A stretch of 64,000 nucleotides of DNA, taken from positions 38,532-102,531 of the forward strand of contig JBEPZY010000002.1 of assembly GCA_041640595.1 (NCBI GenBank), in the 5' to 3' direction. Positions within the stretch are counted from its first letter, which is position 1. Each line of letters starts with the position of its first letter. A program made the position numbers. The DNA comes from Gemmatales bacterium. Lineage in GTDB: Bacteria > Planctomycetota > Planctomycetia > Gemmatales > HRBIN36. This document shows positions 33,001-39,000 of this stretch, one piece after another.

Positions 33001-36000
33001 GCGTATCGGTCGCGGTTCTTCGGTCAGGTGTTTGATCAGCTTCTCCATGGCCGTGTCGCCTGGGAATGGCACCCGACCGGTCAAGCCGTAATAGAAGGTG
33101 CAACCGAGACTGTACAGGTCGGAGCGGATGTCCACCTCGTGGAAATCGCGACCCTGTTCCGGGGACATGAAATCGGCGGTACCATAAACCTGACCGGCGC
33201 GGTTCTGGCGAATGACCGACTCAACCATACGCGAGACGCGACCGGAACGGAGATGGGCCAGGCCAAAATCCACAATTTTCAGCAGGTAATCGCCGCTTTT
33301 CCGCAAGTTGGAAGAAGTGGCCGAGGATTTGCTCCGACTTTTGGTCACCAGCAGGTTGGACGGTTTGAGATCGCGGTGAACCAGACCGAGTCCGTGGGCA
33401 TAATCGAGAGCGGAGGCAGCCTGGCGCATCAATTCCACAGCAAGACCGATCGGCAACGGTCCACGTTCCTGCACTAACTCCTGGAGCGATTTGCCCGGCA
33501 CGTATTCCATGGCGAGAAAATGCACCCCGCGACCGCGATTGGCATCGTAAGCCAGCACGATGTTGGGATGCTGCATCTGCGCCAGCACCCGAATTTCCCG
33601 CTCGAACTGCAACAACTGCTCCTTATCGCGAACGGCACTGAGTTTCAGTACCTTGAGAGCCACCAGCCGTCCCATCCCGGTGTGAACGGCCTTGAACACC
33701 GTCCCCATCGCTCCCTGGCCGAGACGATCCAGGATGCGGTATGGCCCCAGCCAGAATCCTTTTGACCGGCCCAGAAGAATCTGTTCCGCCTGGTAAGCAG
33801 TAAGTAAACCTTCGGCAACAAGCGTGCGGGCGAGCAGTATCGGATCCTTTTCTTGCAGCCGATGCTCCAGAGCGTGAATCTGATCCTCAGCCAGCAACTG
33901 ACTGCGGCGGAGATGGTAAAAGAATTGGTCGCGATCCATGTCGGCTGTTTCCCTGGTGCCGAGCCGCTTGCACCAATTGTTTTTCCGGTGCGATCTGCAC
34001 GGGGATGATTATAGGGAAAGTTCAGGCCTGCTGACAAAGGCGTGTCAGTGACCGGCCTGGTGTGCGCAAGCGAGCCCGCATGGGAATACACGCAGCAAAC
34101 GCTATGCCACTCCCTTTCAGGCTGGTCGCTGTAACAGATGCCGCAGCGCCGACTCCAGTTGCGGATAGTCAAACGTGAAGCCCTGCTCCTGGAGTTTGCG
34201 GGGTACAGCGCGGGCACTGCTCAAAAACAATGCGTCGGCCATTTCGCCAAACACCAGACGGGCCATGAAGCCCGGCATGGGAAACAGTGTCGGTCGCCGT
34301 AAGACTCGTCCGAGCGTGCGAGTAAATTCCGCATTGGTCACCGGCTGGGGCGAAACGAAATTAACCGGCCCCTGAACACTCTCCTTTTCCAGGACGAACT
34401 GAAAGGCCCGGACGGCATCGGCGATATGAATCCAGCTCCAGTATTGCTGGCCCGAACCGATACGACCACCCAGGCACAGCAAAAAAGGCAAGCGCATTTT
34501 CGCCAGTGCCCCACCGCGATCACTCAGGACAACTCCAAGCCGACAGCAAACGACACGGATTCCCGCTTCAGCAGCCGCTGCGGTCGCCGATTCCCATTCC
34601 TGACACACCTGGGCCAGAAAATCGTTACCTGGCGGACTGGATTCGGTCAATTCTTCGCTGCCGCGGTTACCGTAGTACCCGATGGCCGAAGCATTCACCA
34701 GCACACGTGGTTTCGGCTGGAGCCTGGCGAGGGTCTGCGCCAGCAAGCGTGTGCTCAGCACGCGGCTATTGCGAATCAGAGCTTTGACTTCCTCGTTCCA
34801 GCGCCGCTCGGCGATACCGTAACCGGCCAGGTTCACCGCGGCATCAATACCTGCCAGTGCCGCGCTATCCAGCTGTTCCCTGTCAGGGTCCCAGAAAATT
34901 TCCCCCGGTCCGACCGGTGGGCGGCGAACCAGACGAATTACCTCATGGCCAGCCGACTGCAACTGTGGAACCAGAGCCGACCCGATTAAACCCGAAGAAC
35001 CGCTCACCAGCACCCGTGCCATGGTGATTTCTCCTATCCATGATGTGGCGATTCATTGAACTATTATACGGCACGCCCCACACAGAGATTGGCCGGGATG
35101 TTTCTCTCGCCGATGCGGTGTTGCGTGAGCCGGTGTTGCTTGCCAGGCCTATCGCCTGGTGTTCGCTGGATACATTACCGCTGGCCAATGCTTCCACCGA
35201 GCCTGGATTGTTTCAAGCCAGCGACAGTAAACAACCATGCACGCCGGGCAAGCCAGGGTCGTTCGCTGTTCGGTTTGCATTGCCGGATGCGGCATGATCA
35301 GGGAGACTGGTCAGCGTTGAGTGTGGGGCATAAGATCGCGGCAGCCGACAGGTGCCTGACGTGGTGCCAGTCCATCGCCGGGCAAGAGACGGCAGGTGTC
35401 AGTTCACCGACAATGCTGCGAGGAATGCGTCAGCCTGCCGGGATGCTCGGCATCTTGCCGCGGTGATCGGCTGAGCGCTGCGTCGGGAGAATAGGGAAGT
35501 ACGGTGCGAATCCGTCGCGGGGCCGCCGCTGTGTTCGGCCAGGCTCCACGGCTGGGGTAGCCCGAACGGGACTATCCGGCCACTGCGGTCTGTGCGTGGC
35601 GAACCAGTCTCCGCATCGGCAGGAGGCATTCGCCATGGACACGTTTGCCGTGGGAAGGCTGTCGTGGGGCCGCTATGAGCCGTCAGCCAGAAGACCTGCC
35701 TGTCGGCGTCGGCAATCCACGGTGGGGAATGTCTCCGCTGTGGGGAGGATGCTTCGGCCCTCAAGCATCCGGCGGACGCGCGACTTTCTGCCAAACCCGG
35801 GCCGCGTCGGCGCCTCGGGGGCCGAAGCAGTATGCTTCCTGAAGCCCGGCCCGGCAGAAAGGAGCGTGTCATGCTGCACTGCTTCCTGTGCTCCCACTGC
35901 GCTTCTGTCCTACGCACGTCACAAGTGGACGTGGATTATGCTCGCCGGCTCGTCAAGCGGTCAACGGATCGCGTCCCGGCAACGTGTTCCCACCGGTTGT

Positions 36001-39000
36001 TCAGGTGGCGGAGCGGTTTTACGCTGGTGGAGCTGCTGGTGGTGATTGCCATCATTGGGCTGTTGATGGCCCTGTTGCTCCCGGCGATACAACGGGCCCG
36101 CGAAGCTGCCAACCGTGCCCGCTGTGCCAACAACCTCCGTCAGCTGCTCATCGCCGCCCATAACTACGCCACCGCGAACAGCGACGTCCTGCCGCCCGGA
36201 CTGATCAGCGACACCAGCGGCAATACCTACTGGTTCGGCAAAACGTTACCGGGTTCGCCTCTGGGTACGGTGGATGTGACCCAGGGCTGGCTCACCCCGT
36301 ATTACGAACGCAATCGGCAGGTCACCATGTGCCCGAATTTTCCCAGGGATCGCGTGGTGCTCAAGTACGAAGGAGGCACGGGTGGCTACGGTTACAACTA
36401 CAAATACCTGGCTCCAATCAGCTGGGCGAATCAGAGCGGCACCTGGATCACGCAGTGGACGCCGATCACCCTCGGCCAGGTTCAGGCCACCAGCCGCACC
36501 ATTGCCTTCACCGACAGCCTTGGCACCGACACGTTCTCGGCTGGGACGCCCAGCAATCCAGCGCTGATTGAAGTGCCGCTTATTGAACCGCCCAGCGGAC
36601 GTTATCCGACGGTGCATTTTCGGCATGGCGGCGGACGGGTGGCGAATGTGGCGTTCCTGGACGGCCACGTGGAAGGATTTTCCCCAGGCACCCGCAATCC
36701 CGCCGCACCGTGGGACCCACCGTCGCTTACCGCTTTCCGCGACCAGTGGAGCATCTTCGACATCGGCACCAACGACGAACTCTGGGACCGCGAATAAAAC
36801 CGCGATAACTCGCATACGCTGGCACCGTAACCACTGGAAACCCGCCGGCGTTTCCGGGTAGTGCGGCGGGCTCACGCCCCGCGACAACTTCTTCAAATTG
36901 GAAGTAAACGACACTCTGCCAAGTCCTGTTTCCCAATCCCACGGCGGGCTGACGCCCGCCGCTCTTGTGAATGTGCGTTCGCATATCGCAAAATCGCCGT
37001 TTCTCCGGCGAGCGGACACCATGCACCAAGAGCGGTCGGCGTAAGCCGACCGTGGAGCCCCAGCGACTCAGTTCACAAAAACCACCTGCATCTGCAAGTG
37101 CGTTACCGAACCACGGCGGGCTCACGCCCGCCGCTCTTGTGAATGTGCGTTCGCATATCGCAAAATCGCCGTTTCTCCGGCGAGCGGACACCATGCACCA
37201 AGAGCGGTCGGCGTAAGCCGACCGTGGAGCCCCAGCGACTCAGTTCACAAAAACCACCTGCATCTGCAAGTGCGTTACCGAACCACGGCGGGCTCACGCC
37301 CGCCGCTCCTGATTGTGGCGGCGACAGTTGCCGAACATTACGCAATTCTTCTCGCACACCGTGCGTAATGCGAACCACGGCGGGCTGACGCCCGCCGCTC
37401 TTGATCCTCGGAGTGATGTCGCTTCACCGACTGGCTCGGAATAGCGGCCGGAAGTGCGACTACTGATTCACGGCTAACGCTTGGGGCGAACGCTCGCGCT
37501 TGCTGATGGAACGACGCTGGCGACGCTAAACCTGGTACACGCTTTGCCAGGCGTGGCCGCGATGTCCGAACCCCAGCCGATCCGGATGCAGCATCTCCGC
37601 CAGAATTTCGACGGACTCGGCCAGACGTGGGCCGGGACGGTTGAAGTACTGGTTGCCGTCCGCGACAAAGACCTGGCGATGCCGCACTGCGTAGAGGTGC
37701 TGCCAGCCAGGCAATCGCTCCAGAACATGGATTTCCTGCAAGCTGCGCTGCATGTCCCAGCCGCACGGTATCAGGATGATGACTTCCGGATCGGCCTGGA
37801 CTAAATCCTGGTAACGAAGATAGGCCGAAGGTTTGCCGGCTTCGTCAAGAACAGGCACGCCACCGGCCAGGTGAACTAATTCCGGCATCCAGTTGCCCGC
37901 ACCCATAAGCGGATCAAGCCATTCCAGGCAGATGACAGTGGGACGATGGGCGTTCCTGGGCAAGACCAGGTTCACCTGCTGCATACGTTGCTTCAGGCGG
38001 GCGACAAGTTGCTCGGCTTTCTCGCTCGCGCCCAGGGCATTGCCGATGTCGAGCATTCCCTGCCAGACGTCAGCCAGAGAATGCGGCTTGAGGGCAACGA
38101 TGGTCGGTGGGCCGGAAGGTAGTTCCTCGGTGTCCTGCACGGCGAGGCGCTCAGTTGGGAAGTGGCCGGCACCCTGATGCGTTGCTCCATCCGTTGCTGC
38201 GGCATTCGGGGTGGATTCGGGACTGGCGGAATCCGCAAAACTCGCCGCTATTTCGTTCCCATCCGAAACCGGAGCCGGCATGTTCCACGTACAAATGGCC
38301 TGTTCTACATCGCGGAGACTGACGGCGCAGACCTCGCAATGATCCTGGGTAACGATCACTGTCGGGCGGAGCAGCCGCAGCAGTTCGGCATTGATCCAGT
38401 AAACCGGTTCGCCACGCCGGACTACCTCGCGTACCTGTTCGTCAATGGCACGACTGTTTCCGGAAACGTCAATGCGTGGCCCGGTCAGTACGGGCAGGCG
38501 TTCGACTTCCGGGGGATAATCGCACTCATGCGATCGGCCCACCAGAAACCGGCCCATACCCAGGGCGTAGATGGTTTCGGTAGCGCTGGCCAGTAACGAG
38601 ACGATTCGCGGCTGCATGTTTGGCATCCCGGCAGTGAGGCGACAGGCGAACCAGGATCGCTGCTGTCGCAGCCATTGCCTGCTGCATGATCGGTCGGCGA
38701 CGTGGATGGCAACAGGGCGCGGTTATTCTATTTCTGCCTGAGCAACTGCAGAGCCTGGGTTCGGGCAATTTCCAGAACAGCGTTGTCGAGGGCTTGTTGC
38801 ACGGCTGGGTCGTCCATCATTCCGGCCGGGTCGCCACCGTTGGGCAATTGCGGTTTGATCAGCACATCGGGCTGGATACCACGGCCGCTCACGGTTTCGC
38901 CGTTAGGCAACAACCAGCGGGCCGCCGTCATGCGAGTGCCGCCTGCCTGTCCCCGCGCCAGCTCCAGCACATACTGCACTTCCGCTTTGCCCCGGGTCGG

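What a model noticed while it worked through the whole genome (the two positions that open the first line are those of the whole stretch)
35451..36797. Cobalamin riboswitch controls a pilin-like DUF1559 protein in a B12 auxotroph
The genome's only cobalamin riboswitch sits directly upstream of a monocistronic gene (g01014) for a prepilin-type (N-methyl) DUF1559/SBP_bac_10 protein, and the same riboswitch-gene pair recurs in 12 of 19 nearest homologues in other Gemmatales. Boldest reading: this pilin-like protein is the missing outer-envelope vitamin B12 capture/uptake factor of these planctomycetes, which lack TonB-dependent BtuB. It would give the first ligand and function for the huge, uncharacterised DUF1559 family and a new kind of B12 uptake.
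Evidence so far: rna.tsv: one RF00174 hit, C2:73982-74248(+), 55.9 bits; g01014 called from 74402, mature pilin motif [10 protein letters not shown]. Calls 58, 59: 12 of 19 loci around the best homologues in other Gemmatales genomes carry RF00174 (96-114 bits; 38 bits in a congener) just 5' on the same strand, one genome with two tandem riboswitch-gene units; 7 of 19 have none within 5.5 kb. No conserved downstream ORF. Of 30 RF00174 loci from other families of the phylum 1 (same class) is followed by a prepilin-motif ORF. Genome lacks the corrin pathway, BtuB/TonB_dep_Rec and BtuCD but its only ribonucleotide reductases are B12-dependent (g00851, g02353), plus MCM, QueG and a PduO-type adenosyltransferase. 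PF00593 barrel: 0 si [...]
(Added by a program. Inside this text positions count along the whole contig: contig position 38,532 is position 1 of the stretch shown here. "Call 12" and the like, gene names such as g00115 and contig names such as C1 are that model's own, and its searches are not shown. The text may have been shortened before it was handed on; [...] marks where a part breaks off. The agent that wrote the report below was given it as the finding of a first reader that could run no searches.)

Follow-up and report, generated by a model that had tools for sequence, protein, structure and literature searches.

The report
B12 riboswitch controlling a pilin-like gene
A vitamin-B12-sensing RNA switch here controls a pilin-like envelope protein of unknown function, and the same pairing is almost universal in this planctomycete order, where it takes the place that the usual outer-membrane B12 receptor holds in related bacteria.

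Summary
RF00174 sits at 35451-35717(+), 55.9 bits, and is the only copy in the 4.45 Mb genome. Its platform sequesters the SD and ATG (35871) of a 308-aa prepilin-type DUF1559 gene ending at 36797.

Across 151 genomes of the order, 119 of 152 examined riboswitches directly precede a prepilin/DUF1559 gene. That covers 112 of 116 genomes and 46 of 48 genera.

In four genomes the pilin gene opens an operon with DUF6580 (BtuM-like fold), a BtuF-like protein, CobU and CobT. In Verrucomicrobiota the BtuF-like domain is fused to, or adjacent to, such a pilin. The window's convergent neighbour (37526-38626) is the genome's only BtuF-like gene.

Elsewhere in the phylum a TonB-dependent receptor follows the riboswitch in 9 of 30 loci. 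This genome has none, makes no corrin, and its only ribonucleotide reductases need B12.

Best reading: a B12-repressed corrinoid-acquisition component. Ligand binding and location are unproven. The scan noted the same pairing before on other DNA. No paper in the searched library links DUF1559 to cobalamin.

The parts
35451..35717 (+). Cobalamin riboswitch aptamer (RF00174)
   Evidence: cmscan 55.9 bits, full model 1-189, B12-box region aligned at high posterior. Only copy in the genome. Core blocks nearly identical in the congener, peripheral insertion variable.
35770..35792 (+). Upstream arm of the SD/start-sequestering helix (expression platform)
   Evidence: In the MFE fold of 35700-35890 it pairs with 35853-35876. 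It lies in the non-coding block conserved with the congener.
35853..35876 (+). Downstream arm holding the Shine-Dalgarno (35859-35864) and start codon ATG 35871-35873
   Evidence: Paired in the MFE. Mean unpaired probability is 0.33 for the SD and 0.42 for the AUG. Fold z-score -3.4 against shuffles. SD and ATG are conserved in the congener while the sequence after the ATG diverges.
35871..36014 (+). Unusually long prepilin leader (48 codons), not conserved in sequence
   Evidence: In frame and stop-free here and in the congener (52 codons there), but unalignable between them. Orthologues in other genera have leaders of about 4-13 residues.
36015..36797 (+). Mature pilin-like DUF1559 protein (260 aa) plus stop. 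The N-terminal cleavage/methylation motif and hydrophobic helix are followed by a roughly 200-aa head domain (36174-36794).
   Evidence: Pfam N_methyl and SBP_bac_10; TIGR02532. AF2 model pLDDT 91, pTM 0.86, helix over residues 4-54 then a mixed beta head. Nearly all of the best VIA-align rows are type IV pilins or pseudopilins, top Z 5.4. Synonymous-change pattern against the congener. 30-sequence orthologue alignment, mean column identity 61%.
37526..38626 (-). Convergent neighbour: BtuF-like (Peripla_BP_2) protein without a signal peptide
   Evidence: Only PF01497 hit in the genome. Pfam 60.2 bits. 42-51% identical to the protein encoded behind riboswitch-DUF6580 in G040. The N-terminus starts directly with the first strand of the fold. 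PDB sequence relatives are haem/B12/siderophore binding proteins.

Best explanation
A cobalamin riboswitch acts as a translational OFF switch on a monocistronic gene for a type IV pilin-like DUF1559 protein. The protein is made when B12 is scarce.

Shown here:
- A genuine aptamer.
- An SD/AUG-sequestering helix that is conserved in the congener.
- The prepilin motif and a pilin-like predicted fold.
- The gene's membership in a B12 regulon conserved across the order and beyond.

Inferred:
- The protein is cleaved by one of the genome's prepilin peptidases and anchored by, or polymerised through, its N-terminal helix.
- Its roughly 200-aa head domain takes part in capturing corrinoids in the envelope.
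- It passes them towards an inner-membrane BtuM-like DUF6580 transporter and a cytoplasmic BtuF-like acceptor.

In this organism the protein would fill the role that a riboswitch-controlled TonB-dependent BtuB fills in other planctomycetes. The organism needs imported, complete cobamide because its only ribonucleotide reductases are class II and it has no corrin or nucleotide-loop pathway.
For: Regulation. RF00174 at 55.9 bits is the sole copy. The SD and AUG pair with 35770-35792, inside a block conserved in the congener.

Protein. N_methyl and DUF1559 hits. AF2 pLDDT 91. Pilins fill the top of the VIA list, Z up to 5.4. The genome has 3 prepilin-peptidase, 3 secretin and 7 T2SSE hits.

Regulon.
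- 84 of 152 riboswitches in the order have a head-domain homologue 241-636 nt downstream.
- 35 of the other 68 have a prepilin/DUF1559 ORF, giving 119 of 152.
- That is 112 of 116 genomes, 46 of 48 genera, and 91 of 95 genomes with a single listed riboswitch.
- The other 33 riboswitches precede canonical B12-regulon genes: class I RNR 8, MetE 1, DUF6580/BtuF-like 12, CbiMNQO 2, FecCD-ABC 2, chelatase 1, DUF4465 1; the rest are 1 He_PIG and 5 unknown.

Operons. Riboswitch -> DUF1559 -> DUF6580 -> [CobU] -> BtuF-like -> Diphthami_syn_2 -> CobT or nitroreductase, in 4 genomes of 2 genera.

Fusion. P0006 and P0048, and loci L148 and L150, join the BtuF-like domain to a prepilin whose head is 33-41% identical to the window's over 85-87% of its length. 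All 13 Verrucomicrobiota-type DUF1559-only loci scanned carry RF00174 upstream.

Slot replacement. In other families of the phylum the first gene after the riboswitch is a TonB-dependent receptor in 9 of 30 loci and DUF1559 in 4, three of them in the same class.

Need. No TBDT, CbiC, CobS or FecCD; two NrdJ; no class I or class III RNR found.

Transporter. The DUF6580 model resembles BtuM and ECF S-components (TM 0.64/0.66 to 8c7p, probability 0.99).

Phylogeny. All 18 riboswitch-less rows form one derived clade (100/100), so direct riboswitch control looks ancestral.
Against: - No binding, localisation or expression data exist.
- The head domain has no detectable similarity to any known B12 binder: no Pfam DUF4465, BtuF or TBDT hit, and no fold match beyond pilins.
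- Riboswitch-linked prepilins have at least three different head types. One of them is similar to the window's only in the N-terminal helix. That fits a generic pilin role as well as a ligand-specific one.
- The window's riboswitch scores far lower than those of other genera (55.9 against about 100 bits).
- Two of three congeners show no head-domain homologue, at 78 and 87% completeness.
- 17 of 61 genomes of the order have a TonB-dependent receptor, and several of them also carry riboswitch -> pilin. The two are therefore not strictly exclusive.
- The BtuF-like partner lacks a signal peptide, so a simple periplasmic hand-off from pilin to BtuF is topologically unlikely.
- MetE is present, so only some B12 needs are absolute.
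- Related genomes are not independent observations.
Confidence: 0.6

Rival explanations
1. Membrane-anchored periplasmic binding protein. The DUF1559 protein is not assembled into a fibre and does not cross the outer membrane. It stays anchored in the inner membrane by its pilin helix and serves as the substrate-capture subunit of the DUF6580 (BtuM-like) transporter, in the way a tethered solute-binding protein would.
For: DUF1559 and DUF6580 are adjacent in four riboswitch operons. DUF6580 has an S-component/BtuM-like predicted fold. The BtuF-like protein is cytoplasmic by sequence, which leaves no periplasmic binder. In fusions the BtuF-like domain sits where the cytoplasmic prepilin leader is, which fits an N-in, single-pass topology.
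Against: This does not explain how B12 (about 1.3 kDa; size from general knowledge) crosses the outer membrane without a TBDT. It does not explain why the pilin gene takes the slot held by TonB-dependent receptors elsewhere. In the window genome DUF6580 lies on another contig and is not riboswitch-controlled.
Confidence: 0.2
2. Structural (pseudo)pilin of a B12-starvation-induced secretion or surface-display machine. It does not bind B12 itself. It helps export or present other corrinoid-scavenging proteins, or gates a secretin channel.
For: Head domains of riboswitch-linked pilins are heterogeneous. In 13 Verrucomicrobiota-type loci an unknown 320-420-aa ORF lies between the riboswitch and the pilin. 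DUF4465 B12-binding domains also occur under riboswitches in the phylum (L095, L127), and their B12 binding is described in PMC13398666 (abstract and passages read). Secretins and T2SS-type ATPases are present.
Against: In the window and in most genomes of the order the pilin gene is the only riboswitch-controlled gene, with no cargo gene beside it. No DUF4465 homologue was found in the own genome by tblastn.
Confidence: 0.12
3. The link to B12 is regulatory only. The pilin serves adhesion, motility or contact with B12-producing neighbours when the vitamin is scarce, or it has a function unrelated to corrinoid transport.
For: Pilins commonly mediate attachment (general knowledge). No known B12-binding signature was found.
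Against: Repeated co-transcription and fusion with corrinoid transport and salvage genes is hard to explain by adhesion. So is the exclusive retention of the genome's one riboswitch for this gene across 46 of 48 genera.
Confidence: 0.06
4. The riboswitch in this particular genome is decaying and no longer regulates the gene.
For: Low scores in the genus: 55.9 and 37.9 bits, against 88-114 bits for the full-length matches in other genera. Large insertions in the aptamer. The long, unconserved leader peptide.
Against: The aptamer core, the B12-box region and the whole expression platform are nearly identical between the two congeners, while flanking sequence and the leader have diverged. That indicates purifying selection. 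The model is matched end to end.
Confidence: 0.04

Closest known systems
E. coli-type cobalamin uptake: btuB leader riboswitch controlling the TonB-dependent receptor BtuB, with BtuFCD behind it (general knowledge; TBDT-after-riboswitch arrangement seen here in other planctomycete families)
   Same: A cobalamin riboswitch represses, by SD sequestration, the first envelope component of B12 acquisition in an organism that must import the vitamin.
   Different: The controlled protein is a pilin-like DUF1559 protein, not a 22-stranded barrel with a plug. The genome has no PF00593 hit and no FecCD. The BtuF-like protein has no signal peptide.
Bacteroides thetaiotaomicron surface B12 relay: BtuG, BtuH, BtuJ (DUF4465) lipoproteins in riboswitch-regulated loci (PMC13398666, abstract and passages read; PMC13616437, search listing only)
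   Same: Accessory, riboswitch-controlled envelope proteins of previously unknown function that turned out to serve B12 capture. DUF4465 genes also sit behind riboswitches in Planctomycetota (L095, L127).
   Different: Those are lipoproteins with beta-propeller or jelly-roll folds that work with BtuB. This protein has a prepilin signal, a pilin-like fold and no BtuB partner. B12 binding is not shown.
Substrate-binding pilins of uptake pili: DNA-binding minor pilin ComP and competence pseudopili (structures 5hz7, 2nba among the fold matches; mechanism from general knowledge)
   Same: A pilin with an enlarged head domain that could bind a cargo outside the cell and bring it through a secretin by retraction. 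Secretins and pilus ATPases are present.
   Different: The cargo would be a vitamin, not DNA. Fold similarity is weak (Z 4.2 and 2.7). No pilus-assembly genes adjoin the gene.
BtuM, a solitary ECF-S-component-like B12 transporter (PDB 8c7p, 8ovv)
   Same: The DUF6580 proteins that share operons with the pilin gene have a matching six-helix predicted fold (TM 0.64/0.66) and are riboswitch-controlled.
   Different: There is no sequence-level match, and Foldseek E-values are above 0.1. This comparison concerns the partner gene, not the finding's protein.
Type II secretion pseudopilins GspG/H and the DUF1559 / H-X9-DG family of Planctomycetota-Verrucomicrobiota
   Same: N-terminal cleavage/methylation motif and helix. 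Weak NCBIfam hits to GspG and GspH over the first ~55 mature residues. The own genome has at least 24 other DUF1559 paralogues.
   Different: Paralogues match only residues 53 to about 160, so the head domain is specific to the riboswitch-linked subfamily. All NCBIfam pseudopilin scores are far below their cut-offs.

Membership tests
Cobalamin riboswitch (RF00174) | Covariance-model score above the gathering threshold over the whole aptamer | tested here: met
   55.9 bits against 31.5, model positions 1-189 of 189.
Cobalamin riboswitch (RF00174) | Placed 5' of, and on the same strand as, a gene, with an expression platform that can hide the SD and start codon | tested here: met
   The aptamer ends 153 nt before ATG 35871. 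The helix 35770-35792 / 35853-35876 covers the SD and AUG and is conserved in the congener.
Cobalamin riboswitch (RF00174) | Binds a cobalamin and changes expression | not testable with these tools
   Needs in-line probing, ITC or a reporter assay.
Type IV pilin / pseudopilin (prepilin-type N-terminal cleavage/methylation domain) | Gly-Phe-x-x-x-Glu cleavage motif followed by a roughly 20-residue hydrophobic helix | tested here: met
   PF07963 28 bits (cut-off 21.2) and TIGR02532 28.6 bits (cut-off 16.3) at residues 60-83 of P0001.
Type IV pilin / pseudopilin | Short basic leader peptide | tested here: inconclusive
   48 residues from the conserved SD/ATG. An alternative TTG would give 6 residues. 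Orthologues have leaders of 4-13 residues.
Type IV pilin / pseudopilin | Pilin fold: long N-terminal helix packed on a beta-sheet head | tested here: inconclusive
   The AF2 model has a helix over residues 4-54 plus a beta head. The VIA-align top rows are pilins but Z is only 5.4 or less. Foldseek found nothing at E <= 0.001.
Type IV pilin / pseudopilin | Prepilin peptidase and assembly machinery in the genome | tested here: met
   PF01478 3 hits, PF00263 3 hits, PF00437 7 hits.
DUF1559 (PF07596, SBP_bac_10) / H-X9-DG | Pfam model above the gathering score | tested here: met
   41.8 bits against 23.3, but only profile positions 1-61 of 268 are matched.
DUF1559 (PF07596, SBP_bac_10) / H-X9-DG | C-terminal H-X9-DG motif (the model name TIGR04294 is recalled, not from a call) | tested here: inconclusive
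   No such NCBIfam model appears among the 12 hits at E <= 0.01. The alignment keeps an invariant His...Asp-Gly-His stretch near the C-terminus (H201, D216 G217 H218), but with a longer spacer than nine residues.
TonB-dependent receptor BtuB | Plug domain plus 22-strand barrel (PF07715, PF00593) | tested here: not met
   No such Pfam hit in the protein or anywhere in the genome for PF00593.
Known B12-binding envelope proteins (DUF4465 BtuH/BtuJ type; BtuF Peripla_BP_2) | Pfam domain PF14717 or PF01497 in the protein | tested here: not met
   Only N_methyl and SBP_bac_10 were found at E <= 0.01. Fold searches are inconclusive for distant similarity.

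The most novel reading that the evidence does not exclude
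The riboswitch-linked DUF1559 proteins are vitamin-fishing pilins. As tip or minor subunits of a retractile type IV-like fibre (or pseudopilus), they bind cobamides outside the cell and carry them through a secretin into the periplasm. That would be a TonB-independent route across the outer membrane. A BtuM-like DUF6580 permease and a cytoplasmic BtuF-like sink would complete the path. This would be the first pilus-based nutrient import system for a small molecule. It would also give a template for the function of the hundreds of DUF1559 paralogues in Planctomycetota and Verrucomicrobiota, each perhaps capturing a different substrate.
Probability: 0.3. Interest if true: 0.92.

Novelty: new variant of a known kind. 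Interest (0 to 1): 0.76.

Why it matters
DUF1559 is among the largest uncharacterised families in Planctomycetota, with at least 25 copies in this small genome. No ligand or function is in print in the library searched: no paper holds both DUF1559 and cobalamin, and only four hold DUF1559 at all.

A riboswitch is a direct statement by the cell about which metabolite a gene relates to. Here the only riboswitch of its kind in the genome is reserved for one such gene, and this holds across 46 of 48 genera examined.

Together with the operon and fusion partners, this turns two open questions into a bench-testable hypothesis with a defined protein, ligand and phenotype. The questions are how planctomycetes without TonB-dependent receptors take up B12, and what DUF1559 proteins do.

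It also flags three further candidate parts of an undescribed B12 route: DUF6580, a signal-less BtuF-like protein, and a Diphthami_syn_2-type ATPase.

Tried and rejected
- Foldseek of the pilin model against PDB: nothing at E <= 0.001. VIA-align wide gave only weak pilin matches. No known B12-binding fold appeared. That is not evidence of absence.
- Complex prediction of the operon pair from L103 (DUF6580, alignment A2, with DUF1559, alignment A4): no verdict, score 0.00, controls not run. It counts neither for nor against binding.
- phmmer of DUF6580 against PDB sequences: no meaningful hit. NCBIfam gave no name for DUF6580.
- Alternative start TTG near 35997, which would give a typical 6-residue leader. 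I rate it less likely because the SD and ATG at 35871 are conserved in the congener and lie inside the sequestering helix.
- B12-independent isozyme reading: rejected. The product is a non-enzymatic pilin-like protein, and the true isozymes (class I RNR, MetE) are separate riboswitch targets in the same order.
- '7 of 19 homologues lack the riboswitch' as a refutation: rejected. The riboswitch-less copies form one derived paralogue clade (100/100). They occur in genomes that keep another riboswitch-linked copy, for example G041, G086 and G087.
- Strict anticorrelation with TonB-dependent receptors: not found. 17 of 61 genomes have one. None of the 24 TBDT hits lies on a contig with a listed riboswitch. 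G062's riboswitch position was not listed.
- The search of earlier findings by place and by sequence returned nothing.
- Literature searches on 'cobalamin riboswitch' + planctomycetes, on B12 + pilin + riboswitch + uptake, and on DUF6580 gave nothing relevant.
- One search failed because I passed an untranslatable reference. It was repeated correctly.

Full report
OBSERVATION

cmscan of the whole window finds one cobalamin riboswitch aptamer at 35451-35717(+). It scores 55.9 bits (gathering 31.5) and matches the model end to end, with two long insertions in the peripheral arm. A search of the whole assembly (4.45 Mb, 42 contigs, 95.5% complete) finds no other copy.

Downstream on the same strand lies an open frame ending at 36797. 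Its product has the prepilin cleavage/methylation motif (PF07963, TIGR02532) and the N-terminal part of DUF1559/SBP_bac_10 (41.8 bits, profile positions 1-61 of 268). The flanking genes are on the other strand: an epimerase-family gene at 34117-35022 and a Peripla_BP_2 gene at 37526-38626. The gene is therefore monocistronic.

START CODON AND EXPRESSION PLATFORM

I aligned the leader with that of a congener whose head domain is 84% identical. The aptamer core is nearly identical. So is a roughly 150-nt block that runs up to an AAAGGAG Shine-Dalgarno and ATG 35871. Immediately after the ATG the sequences become unalignable. Clear coding conservation with synonymous changes returns only at the Gly-Phe-Thr-Leu motif (36015).

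Both species keep the intervening 48 or 52 codons in frame and free of stops. I therefore take ATG 35871 as the start, giving an unusually long and unconstrained prepilin leader. Orthologues in other genera have leaders of about 4-13 residues.

In the MFE fold of 35700-35890, bases 35770-35792 pair with 35853-35876. That covers the SD (35859-35864) and the AUG. The z-score is -3.4 against shuffles, and mean unpaired probabilities are 0.33 for the SD and 0.42 for the AUG. This is the usual design of a translational OFF switch. That B12 stabilises this fold is inferred, not shown.

THE PROTEIN

The own genome holds at least 24 other DUF1559 paralogues, but they match only residues 53 to about 160. 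The roughly 200-aa head domain is specific.

An AlphaFold2 model built on 30 orthologues is confident (pLDDT 91, pTM 0.86). It has a helix over residues 4-54 followed by a mixed beta head. Foldseek finds nothing at E <= 0.001. In the exhaustive VIA-align search nearly all of the best rows are type IV pilins or pseudopilins, but with low scores (best 6xxd_A: Z 5.4, rmsd 3.6 over 120 residues). The protein is pilin-like with an elaborated head, and no known B12-binding fold is detected.

The genome encodes prepilin peptidases (3 hits), secretins (3) and pilus/T2SS ATPases (7).

HOW GENERAL THE PAIRING IS

I approached this from both sides, in the same 151 genomes of the order.

From the protein side:
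- 111 of 151 genomes have a head-domain homologue at E <= 1e-10.
- Of the 29 best non-self loci, 9 carry RF00174 within 1.5 kb upstream.
- In two of those nine another paralogue sits between the riboswitch and the match.
- Two loci have too little upstream DNA to judge.

From the riboswitch side:
- 139 of 151 genomes have RF00174, and most have exactly one.
- I examined 152 riboswitches: the 150 listed of 183, plus the own and the congener's.
- 84 have a head-domain homologue 241-636 nt downstream on the same strand.
- I fetched the other 68. Of these, 34 have a prepilin-motif ORF within 800 nt, and one more is DUF1559 by Pfam.
- The total is 119 of 152. That covers 112 of 116 genomes, 46 of 48 genera, and 91 of 95 genomes with a single listed riboswitch.
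- The 33 unlisted, weaker riboswitch hits and 23 genomes were not examined.
- Related genomes are not independent observations.

The remaining 33 riboswitches precede the following:

| First gene(s) after the riboswitch | Loci |
|---|---|
| Class I-type ribonucleotide reductase | 8 |
| MetE | 1 |
| DUF6580 and/or a BtuF-like protein | 12 |
| CbiMNQO | 2 |
| FecCD-ABC | 2 |
| Chelatase-like protein | 1 |
| DUF4465 protein | 1 |
| He_PIG protein | 1 |
| Unknown | 5 |

So the riboswitches of this order control a textbook B12 regulon, plus, far more often than anything else, a pilin-like gene.

A maximum-likelihood tree of 40 head domains places all 18 riboswitch-less rows in one clade with 100/100 support. 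These are 14 with no riboswitch, 2 behind a tandem paralogue and 2 with too little upstream DNA. The clade is nested among riboswitch-bearing lineages. These copies occur in genomes that also keep a riboswitch-linked paralogue.

The ten type-ii rows in that tree were picked from riboswitch loci, so only the 30 rows are unbiased. Among those 30, the riboswitch-less ones are still a single clade.

FUNCTIONAL PARTNERS

The convergent neighbour at 37526-38626(-) is the only Peripla_BP_2 gene in the genome. It is 42-51% identical to the protein encoded behind riboswitch -> DUF6580 in another genus.

Homologues occur in 80 of 151 genomes. Of 79 places, 17 lie within 8 kb of a listed riboswitch:
- 12 are arranged riboswitch -> DUF6580 -> BtuF-like.
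- 4 are arranged riboswitch -> DUF1559 -> ... -> BtuF-like.
- 1 is the own genome's convergent pair.

In those four genomes (two genera) the riboswitch heads this operon: DUF1559 -> DUF6580 -> [CobU] -> BtuF-like -> Diphthami_syn_2 -> CobT or a nitroreductase-family protein. The pilin gene is thus co-transcribed with corrinoid transport and salvage genes.

The BtuF-like proteins have no signal peptide. They begin directly with the first strand of the fold.

DUF6580 is a six-helix membrane protein. Its model (pLDDT 89) resembles ECF S-components, with the best TM-scores to BtuM bound to cobalamin (8c7p: 0.64/0.66, probability 0.99, but E 0.5). The own genome has one DUF6580 gene on another contig.

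A search for longer relatives of the head domain found two proteins, P0006 (619 aa) and P0048 (567 aa). In both, the signal-less BtuF-like domain is fused in front of the prepilin motif, and the head is 41% and 33% identical to the window's over 87% and 85% of its length.

In species-representative genomes seven loci match both halves. Two of them (L148, L150) are continuous frames without stops. The other five have stops in a single-frame reading, so they are adjacent genes or frameshifted. L148 lies behind a riboswitch together with a Diphthami_syn_2 gene.

All 13 DUF1559-only loci scanned from that search carry RF00174 upstream on the same strand, with an unknown 320-420-aa ORF in between. 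Most are labelled Verrucomicrobiota.

In the fusions the BtuF-like domain takes the position of the prepilin leader, which is cytoplasmic in type IV pilins (general knowledge). This agrees with its lack of a signal peptide.

WHAT HOLDS THE SAME SLOT ELSEWHERE

I took 100 genomes from other families of the phylum; with the own genome, 93 of the 101 searched have RF00174. I examined the 30 best riboswitch loci.

| First gene after the riboswitch | Loci |
|---|---|
| TonB-dependent receptor (Plug, with or without barrel) | 9 |
| Peripla_BP_2 | 2 |
| DUF4465 | 1 |
| DUF1559 (three from the one other family of the same class) | 4 |
| Other domains | 3 |
| No Pfam hit | 10 |
| Not scanned | 1 |

Within the order, 44 of 61 genomes at >= 90% completeness have no PF00593 hit, including the own genome and its congener. 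Seventeen do have one, and none of the 24 hits lies on a contig with a listed riboswitch. The pilin gene therefore sits where BtuB sits in relatives, though the two are not strictly exclusive.

THE ORGANISM'S NEED FOR B12

- Both ribonucleotide reductases pass the NrdJ equivalog cut-off (693.7 and 585.8 bits against 399.95).
- No class I enzyme was found with a class I query.
- There is no class III domain.
- CbiC and CobS are not found, nor FecCD, CbiM or DUF4465.
- MetE is present (936.5 bits against 929.95), so methionine synthesis is B12-independent.
- Two B12-binding domains exist.
- At 95.5% completeness, absences are probable rather than certain.

The organism must import a complete cobamide to make deoxynucleotides.

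MECHANISM

Best-supported reading (confidence 0.6): when B12 is low the sequestering helix is not locked and the prepilin is translated. It is processed at the Gly-Phe site, and its head domain acts in the envelope to acquire corrinoids. These then enter through DUF6580 and are received by the cytoplasmic BtuF-like protein.

- Shown: the aptamer, the platform, pilin character, and regulon, operon and fusion membership.
- Inferred: ligand binding, location, order of hand-off, and whether the protein polymerises.

Four rivals remain: a tethered periplasmic binder for DUF6580 (0.2), a structural pseudopilin of a B12-starvation secretion or display machine (0.12), a purely regulatory link such as adhesion (0.06), and a decaying switch (0.04).

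Points against my reading:
- No similarity to known B12 binders.
- At least three different head types among riboswitch-linked pilins, one alignable with the window's only in the helix.
- The low riboswitch score in this genus.
- No head-domain homologue in two of three congeners, at 78% and 87% completeness.

COMPARISON AND NOVELTY

It works most like a btuB-type riboswitch-receptor unit and like the riboswitch-controlled accessory B12 binders of Bacteroides (PMC13398666, abstract and passages read). That paper mentions neither pilins nor planctomycetes. The nearest mechanistic analogue for a pilin that takes up a cargo is the DNA-uptake pilus. The protein is not a member of the TBDT, DUF4465 or BtuF families.

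No paper in the searched library holds both DUF1559 and cobalamin. Four hold DUF1559 at all (listing only). Subscription journals are not covered by that library.

Earlier notes of this scan report the same riboswitch-DUF1559 pairing in other genomes of Planctomycetota, Verrucomicrobiota-type bacteria and Armatimonadota. These are unchecked AI notes and not independent evidence. They do mean this window is a further instance rather than the first sighting.

I rate it a new variant of a known kind: a B12-riboswitch uptake regulon with a pilin-like component in place of BtuB. If the pilus-import reading holds, it would be categorically new.

Noticed in passing
window 36935-37405: The spacer between the pilin gene and the BtuF-like gene holds a 172-nt tandem duplication (36939-37110 and 37111-37282, 99% identical). 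It also holds four copies of a 35-nt GC-rich hairpin-forming repeat. Each 172-nt unit ends in a terminator-like hairpin plus T-run on the minus strand, downstream of the BtuF-like gene.
   Followed up: partly
window 37526-38626 (-); L045, L102-L105: The BtuF-like (Peripla_BP_2) proteins of this B12 regulon have no signal peptide and carry invariant cysteines. This suggests a cytoplasmic corrinoid-binding protein rather than a periplasmic one. The window's copy has a roughly 50-residue insertion relative to its homologues.
   Followed up: partly
L045, L102, L103, L105, L148: A Diphthami_syn_2 (PF01902) ATP-pyrophosphatase-type gene recurs in riboswitch-controlled operons next to the BtuF-like gene, in both Planctomycetota and Verrucomicrobiota. 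I know of no described role for it in B12 metabolism.
   Followed up: no
L100:1258-2268 (own genome, contig C3); L103:1265-1828: DUF6580 is a riboswitch-controlled six-helix membrane protein with a predicted BtuM / ECF-S-component-like fold. It is a candidate inner-membrane B12 permease. No paper in the library mentions DUF6580.
   Followed up: partly
L154-L172 (13 loci, mostly labelled Verrucomicrobiota): Riboswitch -> unknown 320-420-aa ORF with no Pfam hit -> DUF1559 gene, in 13 of 13 loci scanned.
   Followed up: partly
window 35871-36014 and L003: The prepilin leaders in this genus are 48 and 52 residues long and share no sequence, whereas other genera have 4-13 residues. In natural fusions a whole BtuF-like domain sits at this position.
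   Followed up: partly
alignment A1, columns of C36 and C106 (mature numbering of the window protein): The riboswitch-linked close orthologues share a cysteine pair. One orthologue (L007) has replaced both by Asp, and the riboswitch-less paralogue clade has neither. This is a possible disulfide marking the subfamily.
   Followed up: no
L095 (G102), L127 (G221): DUF4465 (B12-binding domain) proteins sit directly behind cobalamin riboswitches in Planctomycetota, one of them with Big_3_5 repeats.
   Followed up: no
L038 (G040), L040 (G113): A riboswitch is followed by an unknown 236-248-aa ORF and then an ankyrin-repeat protein. This is an unexplained riboswitch target in two genomes of one genus.
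   Followed up: no
window 32044-32115 (-): A tRNA gene, 76.5 bits.
   Followed up: no
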